In this document: piece by piece, positions 37,638-45,944 of the stretch
How the letters are laid out: the number at the start of each line of letters is the position of its first letter
Position numbering within the stretch: the first letter of the stretch is position 1
DNA from: a virus
Taxonomy: Duplodnaviria > Heunggongvirae > Uroviricota > Caudoviricetes
Length of the DNA: 64,000 nucleotides
Strand: one strand, 5' to 3'
IMG/VR virus record: IMGVR_UViG_2740892427_000001
Made by a program: the position numbers and the translations under genes
The notes under the pieces: model-generated
What the model was told of the DNA's origin: nothing
Databases searched by the model: none
Seen by the model: only the letters and a program-made list of their open reading frames with translations

Positions 37638-37910
37638 TCAGGCTCCTTTTGTTTCGTTGATTCGTTTTAAAGCGGCGGATTCGTCGAATACAATCGCATC
37701 GTGGTTAAGGAGTCTGGATACACGAGCGAGGATTTTTACGACCTGCTCGCTGACTAATCCAAACTCGCGATCTGTCGCTTTCATTCCGGCAGCGCCCAGA
37801 ATTGACGGCAGTGCGATGACAGCGTACTCACCGTGATAAAAGACAATCTCTTTTGCCAGTTGGGTAGGGGTGGTTGTAGCGCCATTAATAATCGATTTAA
37901 GCATTAGCAA
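37638..37910 (-). CDS. small hypothetical protein
   Basis: 90 aa ORF. Confidence 0.4.
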   Translation of the reverse strand: MLMLKSIINGATTTPTQLAKEIVFYHGEYAVIALPSILGAAGMKATDREFGLVSEQVVKILARVSRLLNHDAIVFDESAALKRINETKGA

Positions 37911-38899
37911 TACCTTTCGAATGGAAGAACAAACACTTCAAGGTCTTCAAGGAACGAACGGAAATTCAGCTCGTAGCACAGTTGCTCGAATGCTTTCACG
38001 TCACGATTGCCTTTGATTGTTTCGATTTCGGTAGGCGGAAACTTCGTCTCAATCAGGTTCATTAGCGTGATGTTTCTCTTGAACGCTTCGAGCATTCGAC
38101 AGCCTGTTTTCTCGTTGAAGGCATTCTTCGCTAGTTTGTTGAAGGCGGTCTTATGGCGTCCTTTGTCAACCACGATTGAGCCGTCGTTGATGCCGCGTAC
38201 CATCGTTGCGACACTTCCCCATTCATGCAGCAGCTCTTTCGCACCGCCAGCACCAATGCCACCAACACCGCTAATGTTGTCCGATTTATCGCCTTGTAAT
38301 GCTTTTGCTTCCAAAAATGCGCGAGGCGTGGCGAATCCTGTCAGCTCCGCAAATTGCTCAAAATTAACCTGCTTGTTTTTGGCGTCTTCACGCAGGCTTA
38401 CCCAGCTTACGTTTTCACGAACTAACTGAAGCCAGTCGCTATCGCCTGTTAACAGATAGATGTGTTCAACGGTTGGCTGCGGTGCCATGCGGGATACCAG
38501 CAGCCCGGCCAGATCATCCGCTTCTGCATCTTTTGCAATGAGTTGGGTAACTCCAAGCGCGGTCATCATTTTGAGGATGTATGGCTTCTGGATAGCAAAG
38601 CCTTCCTTCATCTTTTTCATATCAGGATCGTCGTCGCGATTTGCTTTGTAGTCCGGGTAAAAGTCGCGACGCTTGTCACTAAATCCATCCCAAAGAATCA
38701 TAGGTCGGGCATGGAGGATGGAGGCATAACGACGGACGTTCTTAACAAAGCCGAAAGCAGCCTGTACTTCCATTTCGCCGTTGTGCAATTTGTCAGATTG
38801 TTGGTGGTAATAACCCAGGCTATTGCCATCTACGAAGAGATAATTCACCGGTACATTCCTTCCAAAAAGTAAGGCGTCCGTAGAGGCCTTACTGGTCAC
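37904..38899 (-). CDS. 5'-3' exonuclease / flap endonuclease
   Basis: FVDGNSLGY N-terminal block and H3TH-like GDKSDNISGVGGIG. Confidence 0.7.
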   Translation of the reverse strand: MTSKASTDALLFGRNVPVNYLFVDGNSLGYYHQQSDKLHNGEMEVQAAFGFVKNVRRYASILHARPMILWDGFSDKRRDFYPDYKANRDDDPDMKKMKEGFAIQKPYILKMMTALGVTQLIAKDAEADDLAGLLVSRMAPQPTVEHIYLLTGDSDWLQLVRENVSWVSLREDAKNKQVNFEQFAELTGFATPRAFLEAKALQGDKSDNISGVGGIGAGGAKELLHEWGSVATMVRGINDGSIVVDKGRHKTAFNKLAKNAFNEKTGCRMLEAFKRNITLMNLIETKFPPTEIETIKGNRDVKAFEQLCYELNFRSFLEDLEVFVLPFERYC

Positions 38900-38908
38900 G
38901 TAATGGGA

Positions 38909-39937
38909 TTACAGAGAGTCCAGCTCTCTCAGTAGGTCATCCAGACCTTCATCTTCCGTCGCAGATGCGGTTGCTACAGATGTCGCTGCGACTGCTTCAG
39001 ACTCTTTGACTGATACGGCAACGGCAGCGGAACTTGCCTCTGGTTTAAATTCAGTTTCAACGGCACGGAGGATTTCTTCATCAACCAGACTGGTTGGTTC
39101 AGAAGCCGGTGTGTGCGCGGTTGCTACAGCCGTCGCTCCTTCTGTATGACCAGTGACAGAGCCAAATCCAGGTAGTGCCGCAGCCGATGTTTTCGCGGTT
39201 GAGGAAATTGCTGGTGCAGATGCTGCGGCAGTTGGTGCAGCGATGCCAATCAGACGACCCATAGTGCGAACTGTCGACAGAAGACGAGTTTCATCAGCCT
39301 GATTTGCGTATGCGATCAGATCATGCTGGGTGTTCCAGAATTTATCTTCGATATCGCCTTTGTAGACTTTACGCTTAGGCGAGACGTCATATTTGGTATC
39401 GCGACCAGAGCCAGTACGTTTAATCAGGAATGCGTAGCCTTCCTCTTTGCTCAGTGGATTGCCGATATCATCAGCGATGTCTTCGGTGATTGCTTTGCAG
39501 ATATCATCGAATACAGTAGACGGCAGCTCGATTAACTGGCATTTCTCAGCATCTGCGAAATCCTCACGAGCAGAAAGAATGCCGTTGACCAGGTAGCGAG
39601 GAGTGGCACGCATTTGACCGATGCGTTCTTCCATTGCTTTGTTACCCTTGTGACGAGCGCGACCTTCCATCACCATTTCGCATAGCTGACAAGCGCGACC
39701 GTGAGTATGTTGCTCACAAATATAAGCGTTGGTTGCTTCTTTACCTTCCTCGTTCTGATACTTAACGTAGTGCATACCGAAAGTCTGGAAGAACTTACCG
39801 TTTGGGTCGTCTTTATTCGGGAAGATGCGGATATAGTTGACGCCGTCTTTTAAGCGAGTCAGATCAACGTTGTTGCCACGTTTGGCGGCAATGTCTTCAC
39901 GAGTTTTGTTAAGCAAATCAAGTAATGTCTTAGACAT
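38909..39937 (-). CDS. T4 gp32-like single-stranded DNA-binding protein
   Basis: Zn-binding pattern CEQHTHGRACQLCE; Ala/Ser-rich linker; acidic C-terminus DEGLDDLLRELDSL. Confidence 0.6.
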   Translation of the reverse strand: MSKTLLDLLNKTREDIAAKRGNNVDLTRLKDGVNYIRIFPNKDDPNGKFFQTFGMHYVKYQNEEGKEATNAYICEQHTHGRACQLCEMVMEGRARHKGNKAMEERIGQMRATPRYLVNGILSAREDFADAEKCQLIELPSTVFDDICKAITEDIADDIGNPLSKEEGYAFLIKRTGSGRDTKYDVSPKRKVYKGDIEDKFWNTQHDLIAYANQADETRLLSTVRTMGRLIGIAAPTAAASAPAISSTAKTSAAALPGFGSVTGHTEGATAVATAHTPASEPTSLVDEEILRAVETEFKPEASSAAVAVSVKESEAVAATSVATASATEDEGLDDLLRELDSL

Positions 39938-40054
39938 GTGTTTCTCCTTGTTGTGATTTGGCCGATGGCGCTATGCGCGTTGGGCTTTCGTTCATTCGTG
40001 GCTCTTTCGAGCTGTTAAATGATAGATCAGTACTTACTTATTATCTATCAAAAA

Positions 40055-40486
40055 TCAACGGGGAGTAATAAAGCGTTCAGAGCCTAATCGCTCTAATTCA
40101 ACGATGGCCATCTTTGACGCCTGAACGATCATGTCTCGGCGATGCGAAAAGGCGGCGACAGCATGTTTGTATATGTCTGCGATGTGCCGTGCTTCATCCA
40201 ACTTCTGCCGTTTAGACAGATACTGTGGGTTTGTTTTAACCTTAGCGTCCAGTACAGACTCGTTGAACTTAATGCCGTTCATACTCAAGTTCTTACGCTC
40301 TGTGTCGTATAGCTTTGCTTCAACAGCTTCAAGGTTAAGTTTTGCCTCTGCGACATCTCGATCTGCCTGCGCTAGTTTTGACCCATACTCCATTAAAAGC
40401 CGTGGCTGTTTACGCCATACTTCCTCAAGGTTGTCGCGGTCGAACTCCAGATCGGCCATGATTTTAGAAAAAATATCAGTGTTCAC
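40055..40486 (-). CDS. hypothetical protein (possible recombination mediator, by position only)
   Basis: 143 aa helical protein next to SSB and RecA genes. Confidence 0.35.
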   Translation of the reverse strand: MNTDIFSKIMADLEFDRDNLEEVWRKQPRLLMEYGSKLAQADRDVAEAKLNLEAVEAKLYDTERKNLSMNGIKFNESVLDAKVKTNPQYLSKRQKLDEARHIADIYKHAVAAFSHRRDMIVQASKMAIVELERLGSERFITPR

Positions 40487-40693
40487 TCTAATAGGTTCCT
40501 ACTTATAAAATCTGTATCAATTATATCAAACAGAGAACGGGTTTATGGCGTCATGTCAACTTTGTTCAGGGGAAAATATTGAGATCACCGAAGATAATTA
40601 GTTGTCTTATTTTGGTAAGCTGTGCTGACCATCTTTAGGTCACATACATGAGATGGATGGGGGTGTGGCATGAACGGATGAAATTCAGTCGCC

Positions 40694-40723
40694 GTTGACA
40701 GATGTCAACACTGTGAATAGAAT
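40694..40723 (+). promoter_or_regulatory. sigma70-type promoter TTGACA-17-TAGAAT with palindromic operator GTTGACAGATGTCAAC over the -35
   Basis: Perfect inverted repeat overlapping -35; 18 bp upstream of a GGAGG RBS and ATG at 40741. Confidence 0.5.
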
Positions 40724-40740
40724 ACTATTATCGGAGGCGA

Positions 40741-40965
40741 ATGAAGCAACATCCGAATAAGCATATTCAAGCAGCCATTGACTATGCATTAAGTAAAGGC
40801 TGGATCTGGGTAGCAGCTGGTGGTGCTGCACATTGTTTTTGCAGACTGCGATGCGGTAATCCAGAAGGTGAACACAAAACTCACCAAATGAGCGTATGGT
40901 CGACTCCGGGTAATCCCGAAAACCATGCCAAACAGATCAAACGAATGGTTGATCGTTGTAAATGA
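40741..40965 (+). CDS. small Cys/His-rich protein, possibly HicA-like toxin
   Basis: 74 aa; strong RBS; weak HicA-like pattern (GW...GG.AH...P.NH..KQIKR). Confidence 0.4.
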   Translation: MKQHPNKHIQAAIDYALSKGWIWVAAGGAAHCFCRLRCGNPEGEHKTHQMSVWSTPGNPENHAKQIKRMVDRCK

Positions 40966-41025
40966 TTTCAAGGCGGCATTAGCCGCCTTTTGCAGAAACT
41001 GTCCAACTATCTTCAAAGGAAAACT

Positions 41026-41589
41026 ATGGCGCTTTATAACTTCACTCTGACGCTCTCAGGCGTATCGTATGAGACGGAAGGACTGGAAGACGCGCTGTAC
41101 CAAAACGGCTGTGACGATGCGCTAATTTGCGCATATGGAAACTCCGTCTATGTAGAATTTGACCGCGAAGCACAATCACTTGATGCAGCTATCGCATCTG
41201 CGGTCGACAATATTGAATCAGCCGGTATCGGTGCAATTGTTGAATCCGTCGACTCGGCTCTTGTGGGCTTAAGCGATATCGCGGAACTGACAGACCTGTC
41301 TCGCCAGGCAGTGGCGTTGCTCAAAGACGGTAAGCGCGGAAGCGGCGACTTCCCTTGCCCTGTACAACGCATAAAAGGCCAGTCTCCTCTCTGGGATTGG
41401 GCTGATGTGGCTGAATGGCTCATGAATAACGGACGACTTAAAGAGGGCGATCAAATTGTCCAAAATGCCCGAACTTTGAGTAAATGGAATCTGGCGCTTC
41501 GAAACAGCGTCTCGAAAGATTTCAACGAAATAGAGCAAATTGCGGAGAAACTGATTAAACGCCGCAAAGATATTGCGAAATGCGCATAA
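41026..41589 (+). CDS. possible HicB-like antitoxin with C-terminal HTH
   Basis: Start at ATG 41026 with AAGGA RBS; N-terminus YNFTLTL...YETEG and C-terminal HTH-like LSRQAVALL. Confidence 0.35.
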   Translation: MALYNFTLTLSGVSYETEGLEDALYQNGCDDALICAYGNSVYVEFDREAQSLDAAIASAVDNIESAGIGAIVESVDSALVGLSDIAELTDLSRQAVALLKDGKRGSGDFPCPVQRIKGQSPLWDWADVAEWLMNNGRLKEGDQIVQNARTLSKWNLALRNSVSKDFNEIEQIAEKLIKRRKDIAKCA

Positions 41590-41918
41590 TGATGCCCGCC
41601 AATTGGCGGGCATCTGTTCTCTGTAAAGGTGTCTGGCATCGTCTGGTTCGTTAACGTTTACTAAACCAATGGTGACAAAAATTAGTTATCTTTGAAAAAT
41701 AAAGGTTGCATGAAAAGAAGGGGTATGCGTTAATAGCATCGTTGGTTTGCAAGACAGACCTTATGTAAGCAGTTTTAGTAAAGCAGTCTCAGTTCAGTGT
41801 TATCTTCTGATTTCCCTTCTTCGTGAGTCTCCTCCTTAAGTGCCTAAGTAAGTCCCAATCTATACAGATCAAATTCTCGCCGCACTATGTGGCTCACAAA
41901 ATTAAGAAGGTAATATCT

Positions 41919-42134
41919 ATGTCTAATAAAATGACTGGTTTAGTAAAATGGTTTAACTCTGATAAAGGCTTTGGCTTTATTTCTCCTGCTGATGGCAGTA
42001 AAGATGTTTTTGTACATTTTTCGGCAATTCAGAGTAATAATTTCCGCACTTTGGAAGAAGGCCAGCAGGTCGAATTCTCTATCGAGAATGGTGCTAAAGG
42101 CCCAGCAGCAGCAAATGTCGTTGCTCTAAGCTGA
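41919..42134 (+). CDS. cold-shock protein (CspA family)
   Basis: [38 protein letters not shown] is near-identical in pattern to E. coli CspA/CspE; long 5' UTR. Confidence 0.85.
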
Positions 42135-42412
42135 TTCAACGCTGATGATCCTCATTTCTACAATAACGAAGACGGTGTAAGCCTGAGTGGATAGATTTGT
42201 AGGATTGTACAAGTTGAATAAATTAGCATGGTAAGGCCATGCTAATTAAATCGACACAACGGCCAGTTTATTCCATAAAAGTGAATTGCCCATTGTGGCG
42301 AAATGCGGGGTTGCCGCATGAATAGTCAAAGGCAGAAGCTAACTGCCGGCATGGCAAAACAAAGTGCGTAAGAGGAGTGACTTCCTCAACAAGCGCCATA
42401 ATTCTTTATAAA

Positions 42413-42437: not shown

Positions 42438-45400
42438 TTACTTATTTATTGTCTCCGCGATATCAGCCAGAATGGCCTCCAGTCGCTCTCCTTCTTCCGG
42501 TCGGAAGTACAGGATATTCGGGTTAAATCCGTAGAAGACGGTTGCATCAAGCTCTGGGAAGTACTCCTTACGACCAATCAGATCTGATGGTTTACTCTTA
42601 TTGTTAAATAGTGCGGTTGAACGACTACCACACGTCAAAATGTAGGTTGGTCGTACAAGATTAATTTCTTCCCGCATAAAGTCTGTGAACTGGCCTATCT
42701 CGTCTTTGGTATAGTCTTTCTCTTTGTCCTTAACCTTCTTACAAACACCCGTGACATAAAGATCGCCCATGCGCAGATCTCCAACTGTCAGTAGTTTTGC
42801 CTTAAAGTCGTCGTATCCGTTCTCCATGAAGTAGCCGGTACGAGCGTCATTGCCGTTCGCATTGTCCAGAATGATCATGATTTTGGGTTTAATACCAATA
42901 GTCGGGCGTATCAACTCCTCACCCAAGCCCATTTCAGCCGCCATACGTGTCATGAGTACGTTGATTTCGGCAGAACGCTTAGGATTCATTTCGAACGGAC
43001 GTGATGCTTTAACAGCGTCAATGATGAGATTGCCCATCAGCTCAGCCTGGTCGCGCAGTCGTTCAGGATCAGTTGCTGGCAGACTGCCTGGCTCAATTGA
43101 CGCAAAAGCCCCTACTTTATGAAGCGACTCGCGTACACGACTGTTACATGCACGCTTCTCGACCGCTTCATCGAATTGTGCCACTGACTCGAATTTGCCA
43201 CCAACTTTCTCACGCGCACGCATAATTGCCTGACAACCATTTTCAGAACAGCCTTTCACAGCAGAGAATGGCGCATACAGTGCCTGACTGCCGTCTTCGA
43301 GTGTGCGGATCTCAATTCGGTTAGATGACACATTAACGTCTGGTGGCAATACGCGAATGCCATAGGTCAGCGCATCCTTCACCAGCCCCTGATGCTTATC
43401 CTCGCCCAGAATGGTGAGCGCAGCTGCGAAGAACTCAGCAGGGTAGTGCGTCTTTAGCCACATAGACTGATAACTGATTAAAGAATAAGCAACACTGTGT
43501 GATTTGTTGAAGGCATATCCACCGAACTTCTCAAAGGCGTCCCATATTTCTTGGGCTTTTTCCTTACTGAGACCTTCTTGTTCAGAGACGATCTCCACGT
43601 AGTCTATGCCGTCACTAATAGCCTCGCTGTAGCTTCTACGCTTACCGTCTGAGCAATCCAGTTTTGCGTGTTTGTGAACCTCTACAGTACCTCCATTTTT
43701 GAGTGACAGTGTCACCCAGCCTGCTTGTGCTCGTTCTACAAAATCGCTGCCGATCGCTTTCATCTTATCCATGTTCTTTTTACCGATAGCGGAACGCAGA
43801 GCGTCTGCTTCGGCCATAGAGAACCCGGCAAGTACTCGGGAACTTTGCATGATTTGTTCCTGATAGAGCAAAACACCATTAGTCTCCCGGGTGACTTCCT
43901 CAAGACGCGGATGAATTGAATGTGGAGCCATGAAGCCTTTGGCCACGGAGACATAGTCGTCCAACATGCCGGATTGGATCGGGCCTGGTCGGAAGAGTGC
44001 GGTCGTGGCGACAACGGTCTTGAAGCTCATTGGCTCGATGCCACCGCCCAGATCTTTAAGCAACTTACGCATGGGGCCGGACTCCAGCTGGAATACGCCC
44101 TGCGTGTACCCTGCAGCGAACCCATCCAGAACCTTGCGATCGTCCAGTGGGATAGCGTCGAGATTGATGTCTTCCCCGGTACTCTCTTTGATGTAGCGTT
44201 TCGCGCTATCCAGAAGATCGAGCGTTGCCAGGCCAAGCACGTCCAGCTTAATTAGGCCCATAGCCTCGCAGTAACGCTTGTCAAATGCGATACAACGCGC
44301 GTCACCACGGCGCTCAACCGGTGTACGTTCTGTCAGAGGAACACCTGCTACGATCATCCCTGCCGCATGTCTACCAAAGCCACGCATAAGGCTTTGTAAC
44401 TTGCAGGCTGCATTGAATGCATCAGGATATTTTGTTGCGTATTTGTCGAGACTTGCCAGTTGTTCGCGCAGCTCTTCCAATGGAAGGCTATCATCCTCGA
44501 CGTTCTTCAGTTCTTTTGATACCGCCATATCTGCGGACTCCACACCATAAATACGAGCGGTGTCACGTAGTGCAGATGCCGCGCCCAGATAGGTGAAGTT
44601 CGGAATGCCTGCAACGTAATCTTCGCCGTAGCGTTCATTCAGATACTCGATCACCTCATGGCGACGTGCCTGGCTGAAGTCCAAGTCCGCATCCGGCAAG
44701 TCGAGACGCTCAGGGTTGATGAAACGCTCAAACAGAAGACCGTGACGGATTGGGTCGACGTTGGTTATGCCTATGCACCACGCCACCAGAGAACCGGCAG
44801 AGGAACCACGACCAGGCCCGACAGGAATGCCAGTTTCACGGCTGTGATTCATCAGATCGCGTACCATCAGGAAGTAACCACAGAATCCCAGGCGAGTCAG
44901 CGTGTCCATTTCGTACTTTAGCCGCTCAACATAAACCCTGTTCTCAGAAGCAGGTGGTGTGTATCCAAACTCTTTTGTGGTAAGACGTTTACGCAGCCCT
45001 GCAACAGCCAGTTTCATCAGCGTTGCAGGTTCGTCGTCTGCCATCTTGGGCAGTGCTGGTGGCAATTCATGCCAGCGCCATGTGCAGGCATCGATAATGG
45101 AGTCCTGCGTTGTTGAGGCCATTGCAGCTGTTACCGGCACATCCATGCGAACGGAGAAGGCTTTAAGCGCCTCAAGGAGATGGCGACGACCATTGATGGC
45201 GTTATCTCGCTGGTGGGGGATACGCAGACGATGCGGCTGGTCGATTTTTATGTTGTTCGTAACCATGTGCGCAATGTCTTTAATGTCTGCATCGTCGATC
45301 GATTCGTAATAAGCGGGATAGAACGCCACTGGCTCTATTTTCAATGCGCTGGCTACTTTCATCGCTCGGACGTTAATCTGGTCGTAGAATGGGGTAGGGT

Positions 45401-45944
45401 GCGGATAAACCACGCTATAGAAGTTGTCTTTCCCGCCCGCTGTAATCAGTGAGCTTATGATTTTTGCAAAATCGTTGCGTTGGAACACGCTACCGATGTC
45501 GGAAGTGAGCAGGATGATGTTGCCTTTGGCATATGTAGAAACCAACTGTTCGAGCGAGAGACGCGGTACAAAGTAGAACTGTTCTCGTGTGTTGGCCACC
45601 GTCATTAGTTCGCAGATGTCGCGATATCCTTTCTCATTTTTAATTAGAGCGGTAAACGAGTAGTTACGTCCTCGCTCCAATGATTCCATACATCCCTTAG
45701 ACTCTTTAGCAAGTTTAGCCCGGTGCTCGTATGTGGGATCATCAACGATGTTTAGTTTCACACCACAAATAACCGCCATGTCGTCACCAGCGGCACGTTG
45801 TAGTGGAATAACGCTCGCAATATTCATGCTATCTGCTGAAATTACAGCGGTGTAGCCAGCTTCTCTGGCAATCTTCACCGCGTTTTCTGCTTTTAGAGCC
45901 GACTCCCCAAGTGAGAAGTCAGTTCGAACCATCAGTGCTTTCAT
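42438..45944 (-). CDS. dnaE: DNA polymerase III alpha subunit-like replicative polymerase
   Basis: 1168 aa; N-terminal PHP-like domain; PDADLDF catalytic aspartate block parallels DnaE PDIDIDF. Confidence 0.8.
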   Translation of the reverse strand: MKALMVRTDFSLGESALKAENAVKIAREAGYTAVISADSMNIASVIPLQRAAGDDMAVICGVKLNIVDDPTYEHRAKLAKESKGCMESLERGRNYSFTALIKNEKGYRDICELMTVANTREQFYFVPRLSLEQLVSTYAKGNIILLTSDIGSVFQRNDFAKIISSLITAGGKDNFYSVVYPHPTPFYDQINVRAMKVASALKIEPVAFYPAYYESIDDADIKDIAHMVTNNIKIDQPHRLRIPHQRDNAINGRRHLLEALKAFSVRMDVPVTAAMASTTQDSIIDACTWRWHELPPALPKMADDEPATLMKLAVAGLRKRLTTKEFGYTPPASENRVYVERLKYEMDTLTRLGFCGYFLMVRDLMNHSRETGIPVGPGRGSSAGSLVAWCIGITNVDPIRHGLLFERFINPERLDLPDADLDFSQARRHEVIEYLNERYGEDYVAGIPNFTYLGAASALRDTARIYGVESADMAVSKELKNVEDDSLPLEELREQLASLDKYATKYPDAFNAACKLQSLMRGFGRHAAGMIVAGVPLTERTPVERRGDARCIAFDKRYCEAMGLIKLDVLGLATLDLLDSAKRYIKESTGEDINLDAIPLDDRKVLDGFAAGYTQGVFQLESGPMRKLLKDLGGGIEPMSFKTVVATTALFRPGPIQSGMLDDYVSVAKGFMAPHSIHPRLEEVTRETNGVLLYQEQIMQSSRVLAGFSMAEADALRSAIGKKNMDKMKAIGSDFVERAQAGWVTLSLKNGGTVEVHKHAKLDCSDGKRRSYSEAISDGIDYVEIVSEQEGLSKEKAQEIWDAFEKFGGYAFNKSHSVAYSLISYQSMWLKTHYPAEFFAAALTILGEDKHQGLVKDALTYGIRVLPPDVNVSSNRIEIRTLEDGSQALYAPFSAVKGCSENGCQAIMRAREKVGGKFESVAQFDEAVEKRACNSRVRESLHKVGAFASIEPGSLPATDPERLRDQAELMGNLIIDAVKASRPFEMNPKRSAEINVLMTRMAAEMGLGEELIRPTIGIKPKIMIILDNANGNDARTGYFMENGYDDFKAKLLTVGDLRMGDLYVTGVCKKVKDKEKDYTKDEIGQFTDFMREEINLVRPTYILTCGSRSTALFNNKSKPSDLIGRKEYFPELDATVFYGFNPNILYFRPEEGERLEAILADIAETINK

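What the first reader, a model, noticed from the sequence alone, without database searches (positions are those of the whole stretch)
40694..41589. Plus-strand two-gene cassette resembling a HicAB-type toxin-antitoxin pair with an operator-overlapped promoter
A 74-aa Cys/His-rich protein is followed 60 bp later by a 187-aa protein with a C-terminal HTH-like segment. The pair is driven by a TTGACA-17-TAGAAT promoter whose -35 sits inside the perfect palindrome GTTGACAGATGTCAAC. The arrangement fits an autoregulated addiction module, but the family assignment is weak.
Basis: partly seen in the sequence, partly recalled or inferred. Interest (0 to 1): 0.35.

Follow-up and report, generated by a model that had tools for sequence, protein, structure and literature searches.

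The report
Self-repressed two-gene toxin-antitoxin-like cassette
This is a real, self-contained two-gene unit on an SSU5-type phage-plasmid of E. coli: it has the layout of a toxin-antitoxin or phage-defence module and is already listed as the untested defence candidate PDC-M06, but it is not a true HicA/HicB pair.

Summary
A near-consensus promoter (TTGACA-17-TAGAAT) has its -35 inside the inverted repeat GTTGACA-GA-TGTCAAC. It is followed by a 74-aa basic Cys/His-rich protein (g1), a 60-nt spacer and a 187-aa protein (g2).

The window is an SSU5-like phage-plasmid, 99.7% identical to E. coli LF82 phage Cyrano. There the pair is annotated HicA/HicB and is transcribed during lysogeny.

Both proteins match PADLOC's untested candidate PDC-M06 (A and B). 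In 80 of 80 species-level genomes g1 is immediately followed by g2. In 71 of 78 loci GTTGAC-N4-GTCAAC lies upstream, and changes in one arm are mirrored in the other. Three loci whose g2 lacks the DNA-binding domain also lack this repeat.

The HicAB label fails. [quoted passage not shown]

The best reading is a toxin-first, autorepressed toxin-antitoxin or abortive-infection module. Toxicity is inferred, not shown.

The parts
40694..40709 (+). Operator: inverted repeat GTTGACA-GA-TGTCAAC (core GTTGAC-N4-GTCAAC) overlapping the -35
   Evidence: It is the only perfect copy in the 64-kb window. The same repeat lies upstream of g1 homologues in 71 of 78 species-level loci, with symmetric arm variants GTTTAC/GTAAAC and GTAGAC/GTCTAC. 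It is absent in the 3 loci whose g2 lacks the helix-turn-helix.
40695..40723 (+). Sigma-70 promoter: TTGACA (40695-40700), 17-nt spacer, TAGAAT (40718-40723). The inferred transcription start is near 40730, giving a leader of about 11 nt.
   Evidence: 11 of 12 consensus positions. A TAnnnT -10 at 16-18 nt spacing is present in 64 of 71 operator-bearing loci. RNA-seq of the 99.7%-identical Cyrano shows both genes expressed in the lysogen (PMC9928086). The transcription start site is inferred, not mapped.
40733..40737 (+). Shine-Dalgarno sequence GGAGG of g1
   Evidence: Read directly from the sequence. It is conserved in related loci.
40741..40965 (+). g1: a 74-aa basic (net +6, pI 9.5) Cys/His-rich protein that matches PADLOC PDC-M06A. 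It is the putative effector or toxin.
   Evidence: E 1.2e-19; phrog_5923; 692 representatives; conserved H4, K7, W21, H31, C38, T55, P56, H62, C73; AF2 pLDDT 88.8, alpha-beta-beta-(alpha)-beta-alpha.
40970..40989 (+). GC-rich hairpin AAGGCGGC-ATTA-GCCGCCTT, whose last two T run into TT at 40990-40991, directly after the g1 stop codon. It is a putative partial terminator or attenuator ahead of g2.
   Evidence: A perfect hairpin of the same kind is present in 19 of 45 loci with a g1-g2 gap of at least 23 nt, against 0.7% of shuffles. Paired (compensatory) changes in the stem are seen between related plasmids. Cyrano RNA-seq shows g1 at 30-fold and g2 at 14-fold above background. The function is inferred by analogy with hicA(T)B (PMC11878559).
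41017..41020 (+). Shine-Dalgarno-like AGGA of g2
   Evidence: Read directly from the sequence.
41026..41259 (+). g2 N-terminal domain (aa 1-78): acidic (net -13, pI 4.05), ferredoxin-like beta-alpha-beta-beta-alpha-beta. It is the putative g1-binding, neutralising domain.
   Evidence: It is the only part of g2 retained in the helix-turn-helix-less loci L056, L074 and L086.
41260..41445 (+). g2 central winged helix-turn-helix (aa about 79-140), weakly AlpA/excisionase-like. It is the putative operator-binding domain.
   Evidence: (PHROG 'excisionase and transcriptional regulator'), and 88 (PF05930 in 9 of 33 relatives, best E 0.025). Its presence goes together with the operator.
41446..41589 (+). 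g2 C-terminal pair of long helices (aa about 141-187) plus the stop codon. This part is absent in the roughly 147-150-aa short forms of g2.
41591..41614 (+). Intrinsic terminator GATGCCCGCC-AATT-GGCGGGCATC at the end of the cassette
   Evidence: Equivalent CCCGCC...GGCGGG(T)n terminators follow g2 in related plasmids.

Best explanation
The region is a self-contained, autorepressed, two-gene module of the toxin-antitoxin / abortive-infection kind. It corresponds to PADLOC's untested candidate PDC-M06 and is carried as a lysogeny-expressed accessory gene pair (a moron) by an SSU5-type phage-plasmid.

Proposed mechanism:
1. A strong sigma-70 promoter drives g1 and then g2.
2. A g2 dimer binds GTTGAC-N4-GTCAAC through its central winged helix-turn-helix. 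This site covers the -35, so g2 represses its own operon.
3. A GC-rich hairpin with a short U tract just after g1 terminates or attenuates part of the transcripts. g1 mRNA therefore exceeds g2 mRNA.
4. The very acidic ferredoxin-like N-terminal domain of g2 binds and neutralises g1. g1 is a small, basic alpha-beta-beta-beta-alpha protein with invariant His/Lys residues and a probable Cys/His metal site.
5. When g2 is lost, degraded or titrated (on plasmid loss or phage infection), free g1 arrests growth, most likely by binding or cleaving RNA as HicA does.

Shown here or in the cited literature: the anatomy, the obligate g1-g2 linkage, the conserved operator-in-promoter, expression in the lysogen, and the PDC-M06 match.

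Inferred: DNA binding by g2, the g1-g2 contact, the attenuator role of the hairpin, toxicity of g1 and its RNA target, and metal binding.
For: - Module identity: PDC-M06A matches g1 at E 1.2e-19 over the full length, and PDC-M06B matches g2 at E 1.3e-32. The source describes PDC systems as untested candidates found embedded in BREX, DISARM or type I RM systems; PDC-M06 is cassette CAS_00046 with 497 instances.
- Linkage: g1 is immediately followed by g2 on the same strand in 80 of 80 species-level loci, from Gammaproteobacteria to Planctomycetaceae, Balneolia and a cyanobacterium. The genes often overlap by 4 nt.
- Mobility across unrelated contexts:
  - SSU5-family plasmids, including Y. pestis plasmids.
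  - A P2-like prophage, next to YefM/YoeB.
  - A lambda-like tail region.
  - A P4-like island, next to a RelE-type toxin-antitoxin pair.
  - Solo insertions among housekeeping genes.
- Operator: present in 71 of 78 loci, 62 of them perfect, against a background of 0.0044 per 120 nt. Arm changes are symmetric and the spacer is free to vary. A -10 follows at 16-18 nt in 64 of 71 loci. There is one perfect copy in the 64-kb window. The three loci with a g2 lacking the helix-turn-helix also lack the operator.
- Hairpin: found in 19 of 45 spaced loci against 0.7% of shuffles.
- Expression: CYRAN_51 (g1) is 30-fold and CYRAN_50 (g2) 14-fold above prophage background (PMC9928086).
- Charge: g1 is +6 with pI 9.5; the g2 N-terminal domain is -13 with pI 4.05. 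Both hold across the families.
- Asymmetric decay: g1 is inactivated while the g2 N-terminal domain is intact in 3 loci (a nonsense mutation in L041, a frameshift in L093, a nonsense mutation in L074). No locus has an intact g1 with a destroyed g2 N-terminal domain.
- g1 fold: alpha-beta-beta-(alpha)-beta-alpha at pLDDT 88.8, with BFVD matches to proteins named HicA-like.
Against: - There is no experimental or computational demonstration of toxicity, of a g1-g2 contact, or of g2 binding the repeat.
- Homology of g1 to any known toxin is not established.
- PDC-M06 itself is only a guilt-by-embedding candidate.
- The pair holds a fixed syntenic position, between the UvsY-like gene and dnaE, throughout the SSU5 family. 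This could instead reflect a role in the element's own biology.
- The hairpin has a short U tract, was not called by the terminator scan, and its fold z-score in this window is unremarkable.
- The pseudogene asymmetry rests on three cases.
Confidence: 0.5

Rival explanations
1. It is a genuine, merely divergent member of the HicAB family, as annotated in the GenBank record of phage Cyrano. On this view g1 is a HicA mRNA interferase and g2 is a HicB antitoxin.
For: - The Cyrano record names the pair 'HicA toxin protein' and 'putative antitoxin HicB'.
- The gene order is toxin-first, with a palindromic operator in the promoter, as in hicAB (PMC10865869).
- BFVD matches include several proteins named HicA-like, with TM 0.47-0.70.
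- The best hhalign local match against HicA is in register and covers the catalytic-His region.
- An intergenic hairpin is also a feature of the hicA(T)B subfamily.
Against: - No PF07927 hit for g1 or for any of 74 relatives, even at E up to 1. There is no NCBIfam or PHROG HicA hit either.
- hhalign probability is only 15-17%.
- There is no HicA among the 50 PDB Foldseek matches listed.
- g2 against HicB gives probability 0.2%.
- The g2 N-terminal domain has different connectivity from the partial RNase H fold.
- The DNA-binding domain is an AlpA-like winged helix, not an Xre-type helix-turn-helix or a ribbon-helix-helix.
- The Cyrano annotation came from BLASTP label transfer or Pfam, not from experiment.
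Confidence: 0.1
2. It is a non-toxic regulatory pair. g2 would be an AlpA-like transcription factor with a ligand- or partner-sensing ferredoxin-like domain. g1 would be its small co-regulator or anti-repressor, or an RNA- or DNA-binding modulator. The pair would serve the mobile element's own programme (replication, recombination or the lysogeny decision) rather than killing the host.
For: - The position is fixed, between the recombination genes and dnaE, in every SSU5-family plasmid examined.
- g2 resembles AlpA/excisionase-type regulators.
- Both genes are expressed in the lysogen.
- No toxin family matches g1.
Against: - Only one operator is present in the 64-kb window, and it is the cassette's own. 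No other target is visible.
- The same pair occurs as a solo insertion among housekeeping genes and in unrelated prophages, satellites and defence contexts, where no common partner genes exist.
- Forms of g2 without the helix-turn-helix keep the pairing with g1. The conserved core is therefore the g1 / g2 N-terminal domain interaction, not transcription control.
Confidence: 0.22
3. It is an anti-phage system that is not a classical toxin-antitoxin pair. For example, g1 might sense or sequester a phage nucleic acid or protein, and release of g2 might reprogramme transcription. Alternatively the g1-g2 complex itself might be the effector.
For: - The cassette was selected as PDC-M06 because homologues are embedded in BREX, DISARM or type I RM loci.
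- It is carried as a moron by temperate elements.
- g1 is basic and looks like a nucleic-acid binder.
Against: - No enzymatic or sensor domain is recognisable in either protein.
- The module is very small.
- The asymmetric loss of g1 and the strong autorepression design are more typical of toxin control.
Confidence: 0.15

Closest known systems
PADLOC phage defence candidate PDC-M06 (Payne et al., bioRxiv 10.1101/2024.01.29.577857)
   Same: Both proteins match its HMMs over their length, in the A-then-B order on one strand. This is the same cassette family (CAS_00046, 497 RefSeq instances).
   Different: Nothing differs in membership. However, PDC-M06 is only a name for an untested candidate. 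No fold, operator, hairpin, mechanism or phage-plasmid association is described in the main text or the held supplements that I searched.
HicAB type II toxin-antitoxin systems, especially class 3 (HicB with helix-turn-helix) and the plasmid hicA(T)B subfamily with an internal terminator (PMC10865869; PMC11878559)
   Same: The small first gene has an alpha-beta-beta-beta-alpha fold. The second gene combines an N-terminal partner domain with a DNA-binding domain. A palindromic operator lies in the promoter. There are two layouts, either overlapping genes or a spacer holding a GC-rich hairpin with a short U tract. Variants whose second protein lacks the DNA-binding domain also exist.
   Different: There is no PF07927 or HicB profile match. 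The g2 N-terminal domain is ferredoxin-like beta-alpha-beta-beta-alpha-beta, not a partial RNase H fold. The DNA-binding domain is a central AlpA-like winged helix followed by extra helices. g1 carries a conserved Cys/His cluster and an N-terminal HPNK motif that are absent from HicA.
AlpA / excisionase (MerR-superfamily) winged-helix regulators of prophages (Pfam PF05930; PHROG 'excisionase and transcriptional regulator')
   Same: The central segment of g2...LSDIAELTxLSRQA...FPxPxQRIxGxSPLWxWxxVxxW..., resembles this family by eye. It gives weak profile hits (phrog_66 at E 2e-4; PF05930 in 9 of 33 relatives).
   Different: All hits are below the curated thresholds. g2 has an extra acidic N-terminal domain and a C-terminal helical pair. 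It is always coupled to g1 and sits next to its own palindromic operator rather than next to an integrase.
MqsRA and HigBA (other toxin-first type II toxin-antitoxin systems)
   Same: The toxin gene precedes the antitoxin gene. The antitoxin carries a helix-turn-helix and represses through a promoter palindrome (general knowledge of these families, not tested here).
   Different: Those toxins have a RelE fold, whereas g1 does not. In MqsRA the zinc site is in the antitoxin; here the Cys/His cluster is in g1.

Membership tests
HicA toxin (Pfam PF07927) | Significant match to the HicA sequence profile | tested here: not met
   There is no PF07927 hit at E up to 1 for g1 or for any of 74 diverse g1 relatives. 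NCBIfam, PHROG and PDB-sequence searches give no HicA hit either. hhalign against a PDB-anchored HicA alignment gives probability 15-17%. Against a narrow E. coli-type alignment it gives only an out-of-register match.
HicA toxin (Pfam PF07927) | dsRBD-like alpha-beta-beta-beta-alpha fold that superposes on solved HicA structures | tested here: inconclusive
   The AF2 model (pLDDT 88.8) has H7-18, E21-25, E32-38, (H43-47), E49-53 and H59-72. BFVD Foldseek gives proteins named HicA-like at ranks 3, 15, 19, 31, 33 and 43 with TM 0.47-0.70, but no E-value at or below 1e-3. PDB Foldseek shows no HicA among the 50 matches listed; the best hits are aminotransferase subdomains at E above 0.6.
HicA toxin (Pfam PF07927) | Conserved catalytic His (with a preceding Gly/Ser) at the start of strand beta-2 | tested here: inconclusive
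   g1 H31 is nearly invariant and lies just before beta-2, which the model starts at residue 32, within a G-x-S-x-H-x-F context. The low-probability hhalign match places it within one residue of HicA H24. Positional equivalence is not established.
HicA toxin (Pfam PF07927) | Ribosome-independent RNase activity and growth inhibition | not testable with these tools
   This needs an expression and toxicity assay, and RNA cleavage assays.
HicB antitoxin | [quoted passage not shown] | tested here: not met
   The g2 model (pLDDT 89.5) has E2-11, H20-26, E32-37, E40-49, H52-64 and E71-76, which is beta-alpha-beta-beta-alpha-beta. Its Foldseek neighbours are generic ferredoxin-like folds, with no HicB among the matches listed. 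hhalign against an E. coli / S. pneumoniae / Y. pestis HicB alignment gives probability 0.2%. No Pfam HicB-type hit is found in 33 relatives.
HicB antitoxin | C-terminal Xre-type helix-turn-helix or ribbon-helix-helix DNA-binding domain | tested here: not met
   The DNA-binding segment is central and weakly AlpA/excisionase-like. HTH_3 is hit by 1 of 33 relatives, at E 0.19.
HicAB operon | Toxin gene first, with a palindromic operator in the promoter | tested here: met
   The gene order is fixed in 80 of 80 loci. The palindrome overlaps the -35 in 71 of 78 loci. Binding itself was not tested.
PADLOC PDC-M06 | Protein A and protein B match the PDC-M06A and PDC-M06B HMMs and are adjacent on one strand in A-then-B order | tested here: met
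   six M06A models hit g1 (best E 1.2e-19, residues 2-74), and M06B hits g2 at E 1.3e-32 (residues 3-161). Adjacency is shown.
PADLOC PDC-M06 | Anti-phage activity | not testable with these tools
   The source states that the 145 PDC systems are untested. No paper text in the held library mentions PDC-M06.
Type II toxin-antitoxin module (generic) | Small, autoregulated bicistronic unit that moves as a unit between unrelated genomic contexts | tested here: met
Type II toxin-antitoxin module (generic) | Toxin inhibits growth and is neutralised by direct binding of the antitoxin | not testable with these tools
   Only indirect support is available. The charges are complementary. The g2 N-terminal domain is retained in the forms lacking the helix-turn-helix. 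There are 3 loci with a dead g1 and an intact g2 N-terminal domain, against 0 of the reverse.
AlpA / excisionase winged helix (PF05930) | Profile match above the curated threshold | tested here: inconclusive
   PF05930 is hit by 9 of 33 g2 relatives, best E 0.025, and not by the window protein. The hits to 'excisionase and transcriptional regulator' PHROGs other than the protein's own family are weak, at E 2e-4 to 1e-3.

The most novel reading that the evidence does not exclude
PDC-M06 is a previously uncharacterised toxin-antitoxin / abortive-infection family. Its toxin would be a metal-braced (Cys/His), very remote HicA-like dsRBD protein. This toxin would be neutralised not by HicB but by an unrelated acidic ferredoxin-like domain fused to an AlpA-type winged helix. 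That would effectively be a fifteenth genetic context for HicA-like toxins. The module would be the conserved addiction or superinfection-exclusion unit of the SSU5 phage-plasmid family, which includes plasmids of Yersinia pestis. Its toxin:antitoxin ratio would be set by an intergenic attenuator hairpin.
Probability: 0.3. Interest if true: 0.55.

Novelty: new variant of a known kind. Interest (0 to 1): 0.4.

Why it matters
- The cassette is widespread. The g1 family has 692 representative clusters, and the pair was found in 80 of 80 sampled species. It is a fixed feature of SSU5-type phage-plasmids of E. coli, Enterobacter, Citrobacter, Klebsiella and Yersinia pestis.
- Despite this it has no Pfam family, and its public labels conflict: 'HicA/HicB', 'AlpA family regulator', 'hypothetical protein' and PDC-M06.
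- Showing that it is a toxin-antitoxin or abortive-infection module would add a new toxin/antitoxin pairing. It would also help explain the stability or phage exclusion of these plasmids, and would correct a propagating HicAB annotation.
- The very strongly conserved operator GTTGAC-N4-GTCAAC, and the split between overlapping and hairpin-spaced layouts, give directly testable handles on how the ratio of the two proteins is set.
- It is not a conceptual surprise. The architecture is that of a classical toxin-first type II module.

Tried and rejected
- Pfam, NCBIfam and PHROG scans of g1 and g2 gave no named family. The exceptions were each protein's own PHROG and sub-threshold noise hits (RuBisCO_small, CagE_TrbE_VirB), which I rejected as chance.
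- Profile searches of both families against PDB sequences gave nothing below E 0.1.
- Foldseek against the PDB gave no match at E 1e-3 or better for either model. The aminotransferase small-domain hits for g1 and the HIV reverse-transcriptase hits for g2 were rejected as generic alpha/beta fragments.
- hhalign of the g1 family against a narrow E. coli-type HicA alignment gave an out-of-register 19-column match (76%). I discarded it, because that profile cannot even find other HicA structures in the PDB. I then rebuilt a PDB-anchored HicA alignment.
- The search for related loci with the broad alignment A4 failed because it had no conserved stretch. It was repeated with A2.
- I considered that E. 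coli plasmids with g2 alone (pTB212 type) might show g2 acting independently. I rejected this: it is a deletion that removes the promoter, g1 and the first strand of g2.
- The extra half-site TGTCAAC at 40554-40560 was examined by eye as a possible -35 of a divergent promoter. The spacing to any -10 is wrong, so it is left unexplained.
- The held supplements of the Serratia 39006 transposon study list the pair only as 'hypothetical protein' in GI_4 and give no insertion data.
- No model coordinates were accessible, so Cys/His distances could not be measured.
- No Rfam family lies within the cassette.
Full report
**What is there**

The window is an SSU5-type phage-plasmid. The 1.2 kb around the finding is 100% identical to many roughly 110-kb non-mobilizable E. 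coli plasmids. It is 99.7% identical to Escherichia phage Cyrano, which is pLF82 of E. coli LF82. This variant occurs in 110 of 5426 complete E. coli genomes and is always on a plasmid.

The cassette lies on the + strand between two minus-strand blocks. One block is a recombination set: a 5'-3' exonuclease, a gp32-like SSB and a UvsY-like protein. The other contains dnaE.

The anatomy is as follows:
- Inverted repeat: GTTGACA-GA-TGTCAAC at 40694-40709.
- -35: TTGACA at 40695-40700.
- Spacer: 17 nt.
- -10: TAGAAT at 40718-40723 (11 of 12 consensus positions with the -35).
- g1 ribosome-binding site: GGAGG at 40733-40737.
- g1: 40741-40965, 74 aa.
- Hairpin: AAGGCGGC-ATTA-GCCGCCTT, running into TT, at 40970-40989.
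- g2: 41026-41589, 187 aa.
- Terminator: a strong intrinsic terminator at 41591-41614.

The repeat has 7-bp arms around a non-palindromic 2-nt centre. The helix-turn-helix of g2 is central, not C-terminal. The intergenic hairpin was missed.

**Is it more than chance?**

Within one window the repeat alone is not compelling. Comparison with other genomes settles the matter.

A scan of one genome per species returned 80 loci that encode a g1 relative. The taxa include:
- Enterobacterales, Pasteurellaceae and Neisseria;
- Acinetobacter/Moraxella and Legionella;
- Alteromonadaceae and Phenylobacterium;
- a Planctomycetaceae MAG, a Balneolia MAG and a cyanobacterial MAG.

In all 80 loci a g2 relative follows immediately on the same strand.

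In 71 of the 78 loci with enough upstream sequence, GTTGAC-N4-GTCAAC lies within 120 nt of the start codon. Sixty-two copies are perfect, and the background rate is 0.0044 per 120 nt.
- The 4-nt spacer varies freely while the arms do not.
- The arm variants change symmetrically: GTTTAC/GTAAAC in 8 loci and GTAGAC/GTCTAC in 2.
- This is what a dimeric DNA-binding protein predicts. A -35 box alone does not predict it.
- In 64 of the 71 loci a TAnnnT -10 follows the TTGACx of the left arm at 16-18 nt.

Three loci encode a g2 that consists only of the N-terminal domain: two Cardiobacteriaceae MAGs and one Planctomycetaceae MAG. All three lack the repeat. The window holds only one perfect copy of the operator, and it is the cassette's own.

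**The proteins**

g1 belongs to a sizeable orphan family.
- It has 692 representatives at 50% identity with E at or below 1e-3.
- It has no Pfam or NCBIfam model.
- H4, K7, W21, H31, C38, T55, P56 and C73 are invariant or nearly so across the broad family, and H62 is invariant among the close relatives.
- In the wider family the pattern is LxCP...GC...DxCxH.
- In this subfamily C34, C38, H45/H48 and C73 take those places, which suggests a structural metal site.
- AF2 gives a confident alpha-beta-beta-(alpha)-beta-alpha model (pLDDT 88.8).
- The protein is basic, with net charge +6 and pI 9.5.

g2 has three parts (pLDDT 89.5).
- An extremely acidic N-terminal domain, beta-alpha-beta-beta-alpha-beta, with net charge -13 and pI 4.05 (family median -12).
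- A central winged helix-turn-helix with weak AlpA/excisionase similarity.
- Two long C-terminal helices, which the roughly 147-150-aa short forms lack.

**Known catalogue entry**

Against PADLOC-DB, g1 matches PDC-M06A (E 1.2e-19) and g2 matches PDC-M06B (E 1.3e-32).

PDC systems are 145 untested 'phage defence candidates'. They were chosen because homologues are embedded inside BREX, DISARM or type I RM loci. PDC-M06 is cassette CAS_00046, with 497 RefSeq instances. No paper text in the held library mentions PDC-M06.

**The HicAB question**

The Cyrano record calls the genes 'HicA toxin protein' and 'putative antitoxin HicB'. The paper that produced the record assigned functions by BLASTP label transfer or Pfam, not by experiment.

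I took the family's defining features from Gerdes 2024 (PMC10865869) and tested them.

For g1:
- There is no PF07927 hit for g1 or for any of 74 relatives.
- hhalign against an alignment anchored on five solved HicA sequences gives only a 19-22-column local match at 15-17% probability. That match is, however, in register and includes the catalytic-His region.
- PDB Foldseek lists no HicA.
- BFVD Foldseek lists several phage proteins named HicA-like at TM 0.47-0.70, but no E-value at or below 1e-3.

For g2:
- The N-terminal fold has different connectivity from the partial RNase H fold of HicB.
- hhalign against HicB gives 0.2%.
- The DNA-binding domain is of a different type.

So g2 is not HicB. 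g1 is at most a very remote structural relative of HicA.

**How it probably works**

The evidence best fits a toxin-first, autorepressed toxin-antitoxin / abortive-infection module.

The pair behaves as a mobile unit and appears in unrelated contexts:
- an integrase islet in Pseudoalteromonas (g2 is 47% identical);
- a P2-like prophage beside YefM/YoeB in Histophilus;
- a P4-like island beside a RelE-type toxin-antitoxin pair in Serratia sp. ATCC 39006;
- solo insertions among housekeeping genes in Sodalis and Providencia.

Further indirect support:
- In the LF82 lysogen both genes are transcribed well above prophage background, g1 at 30-fold and g2 at 14-fold (PMC9928086).
- The N-terminal domain of g2 is the part that always accompanies g1, and its charge is opposite to that of g1.
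- g1 is found inactivated with the g2 N-terminal domain intact in three species: a W53 nonsense mutation in L041, a frameshift in L093 and a Q65 nonsense mutation in L074. The reverse was not seen.
- One E. coli lineage has deleted the promoter, g1 and the first strand of g2 together.

The g1-g2 junction comes in two layouts.
- In one, the genes overlap or nearly abut, typically with a 4-nt ATGA overlap.
- In the other, a 23-148-nt spacer begins with a GC-rich hairpin and a short T tract. A perfect hairpin is present in 19 of 45 spaced loci, against 0.7% of shuffles.
- Paired (compensatory) stem changes are seen between related plasmids.

This mirrors the hicA(O)B and hicA(T)B subfamilies. In hicA(T)B such a hairpin was shown to terminate part of the transcripts and raise the toxin:antitoxin ratio (PMC11878559).

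The steps that remain inferred are g2 binding to the repeat, the g1-g2 contact, the attenuator role of the hairpin, g1 toxicity and its target, and the metal site.

**Rivals**

- A true but divergent HicAB pair is unlikely because g2 fails every HicB feature.
- A non-toxic regulator pair serving the phage-plasmid is kept alive by the fixed syntenic position across the SSU5 family. It is weakened by the single operator, by the solo chromosomal copies and by the forms of g2 without the helix-turn-helix.
- A defence system that is not a classical toxin-antitoxin pair cannot be excluded.

**Verdict**

The cassette is already catalogued as an untested candidate, so it is not categorically new. Its protein folds, its operator and its two junction layouts are, as far as the held literature shows, undescribed. 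I rate it a new variant of a known kind, of moderate interest.

Noticed in passing
window 41741-42159 (+); CDS 41916-42134: A complete cspA thermoregulator RNA (Rfam RF01766, 187.6 bits, E 2.4e-51) with a CspA-family cold-shock gene (Pfam CSD, E 1.5e-33) lies directly downstream of the cassette. SSU5 and the Citrobacter, Enterobacter and Yersinia relatives have a minus-strand ORF of roughly 140-150 aa at this position instead.
   Followed up: partly
L011 about 1470-1490 and L031 (Yersinia pestis SSU5-family plasmids): Both ORFs are intact, but the right arm of the operator has decayed (GTGTTGACACGCGCTCACAC). In Y. pestis the cassette may therefore have escaped autorepression.
   Followed up: no
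L013 1830-2500 (E. coli plasmid pTB212, NZ_CP033252); similar matches H54-H58: A lineage of E. coli SSU5-like plasmids has lost the promoter, g1 and the first ~19 residues of g2. What remains is a truncated gene annotated 'DNA-binding protein'.
   Followed up: yes
L051 (Alteromonadaceae MAG), upstream of 5001; L070, L073 and L087 (Moraxellaceae / Acinetobacter): One locus has two tandem operators (GTTGACGTTTGTCAAC...GTTGACAGACGTCAAC). Several Acinetobacter/Moraxellaceae loci embed the operator in much longer palindromes, with 13-25-nt arms.
   Followed up: no
window 40554-40560: An isolated operator half-site, TGTCAAC, lies 133 nt upstream of the operator, in the divergent intergenic region shared with the UvsY-like gene. 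No suitably spaced -10 was seen by eye, and its role, if any, is unknown.
   Followed up: partly
L094 8001-8863 (Serratia sp. ATCC 39006 / Prodigiosinella, CP025084): The pair (CWC46_04390 and CWC46_04385) sits in genomic island GI_4. Nearby is the relBE/parDE-3 locus (CWC46_04410-04415), which a transposon study scored as functional. The pair itself was not on that study's toxin-antitoxin list.
   Followed up: partly
window 37904-40486 (-) and 42438-45944 (-): The cassette interrupts a minus-strand replication and recombination block: a 5'-3' exonuclease, a gp32-like SSB with an acidic tail, a UvsY-like protein (phrog_231, E 1.9e-4), and further on a DnaE-type polymerase.
   Followed up: no
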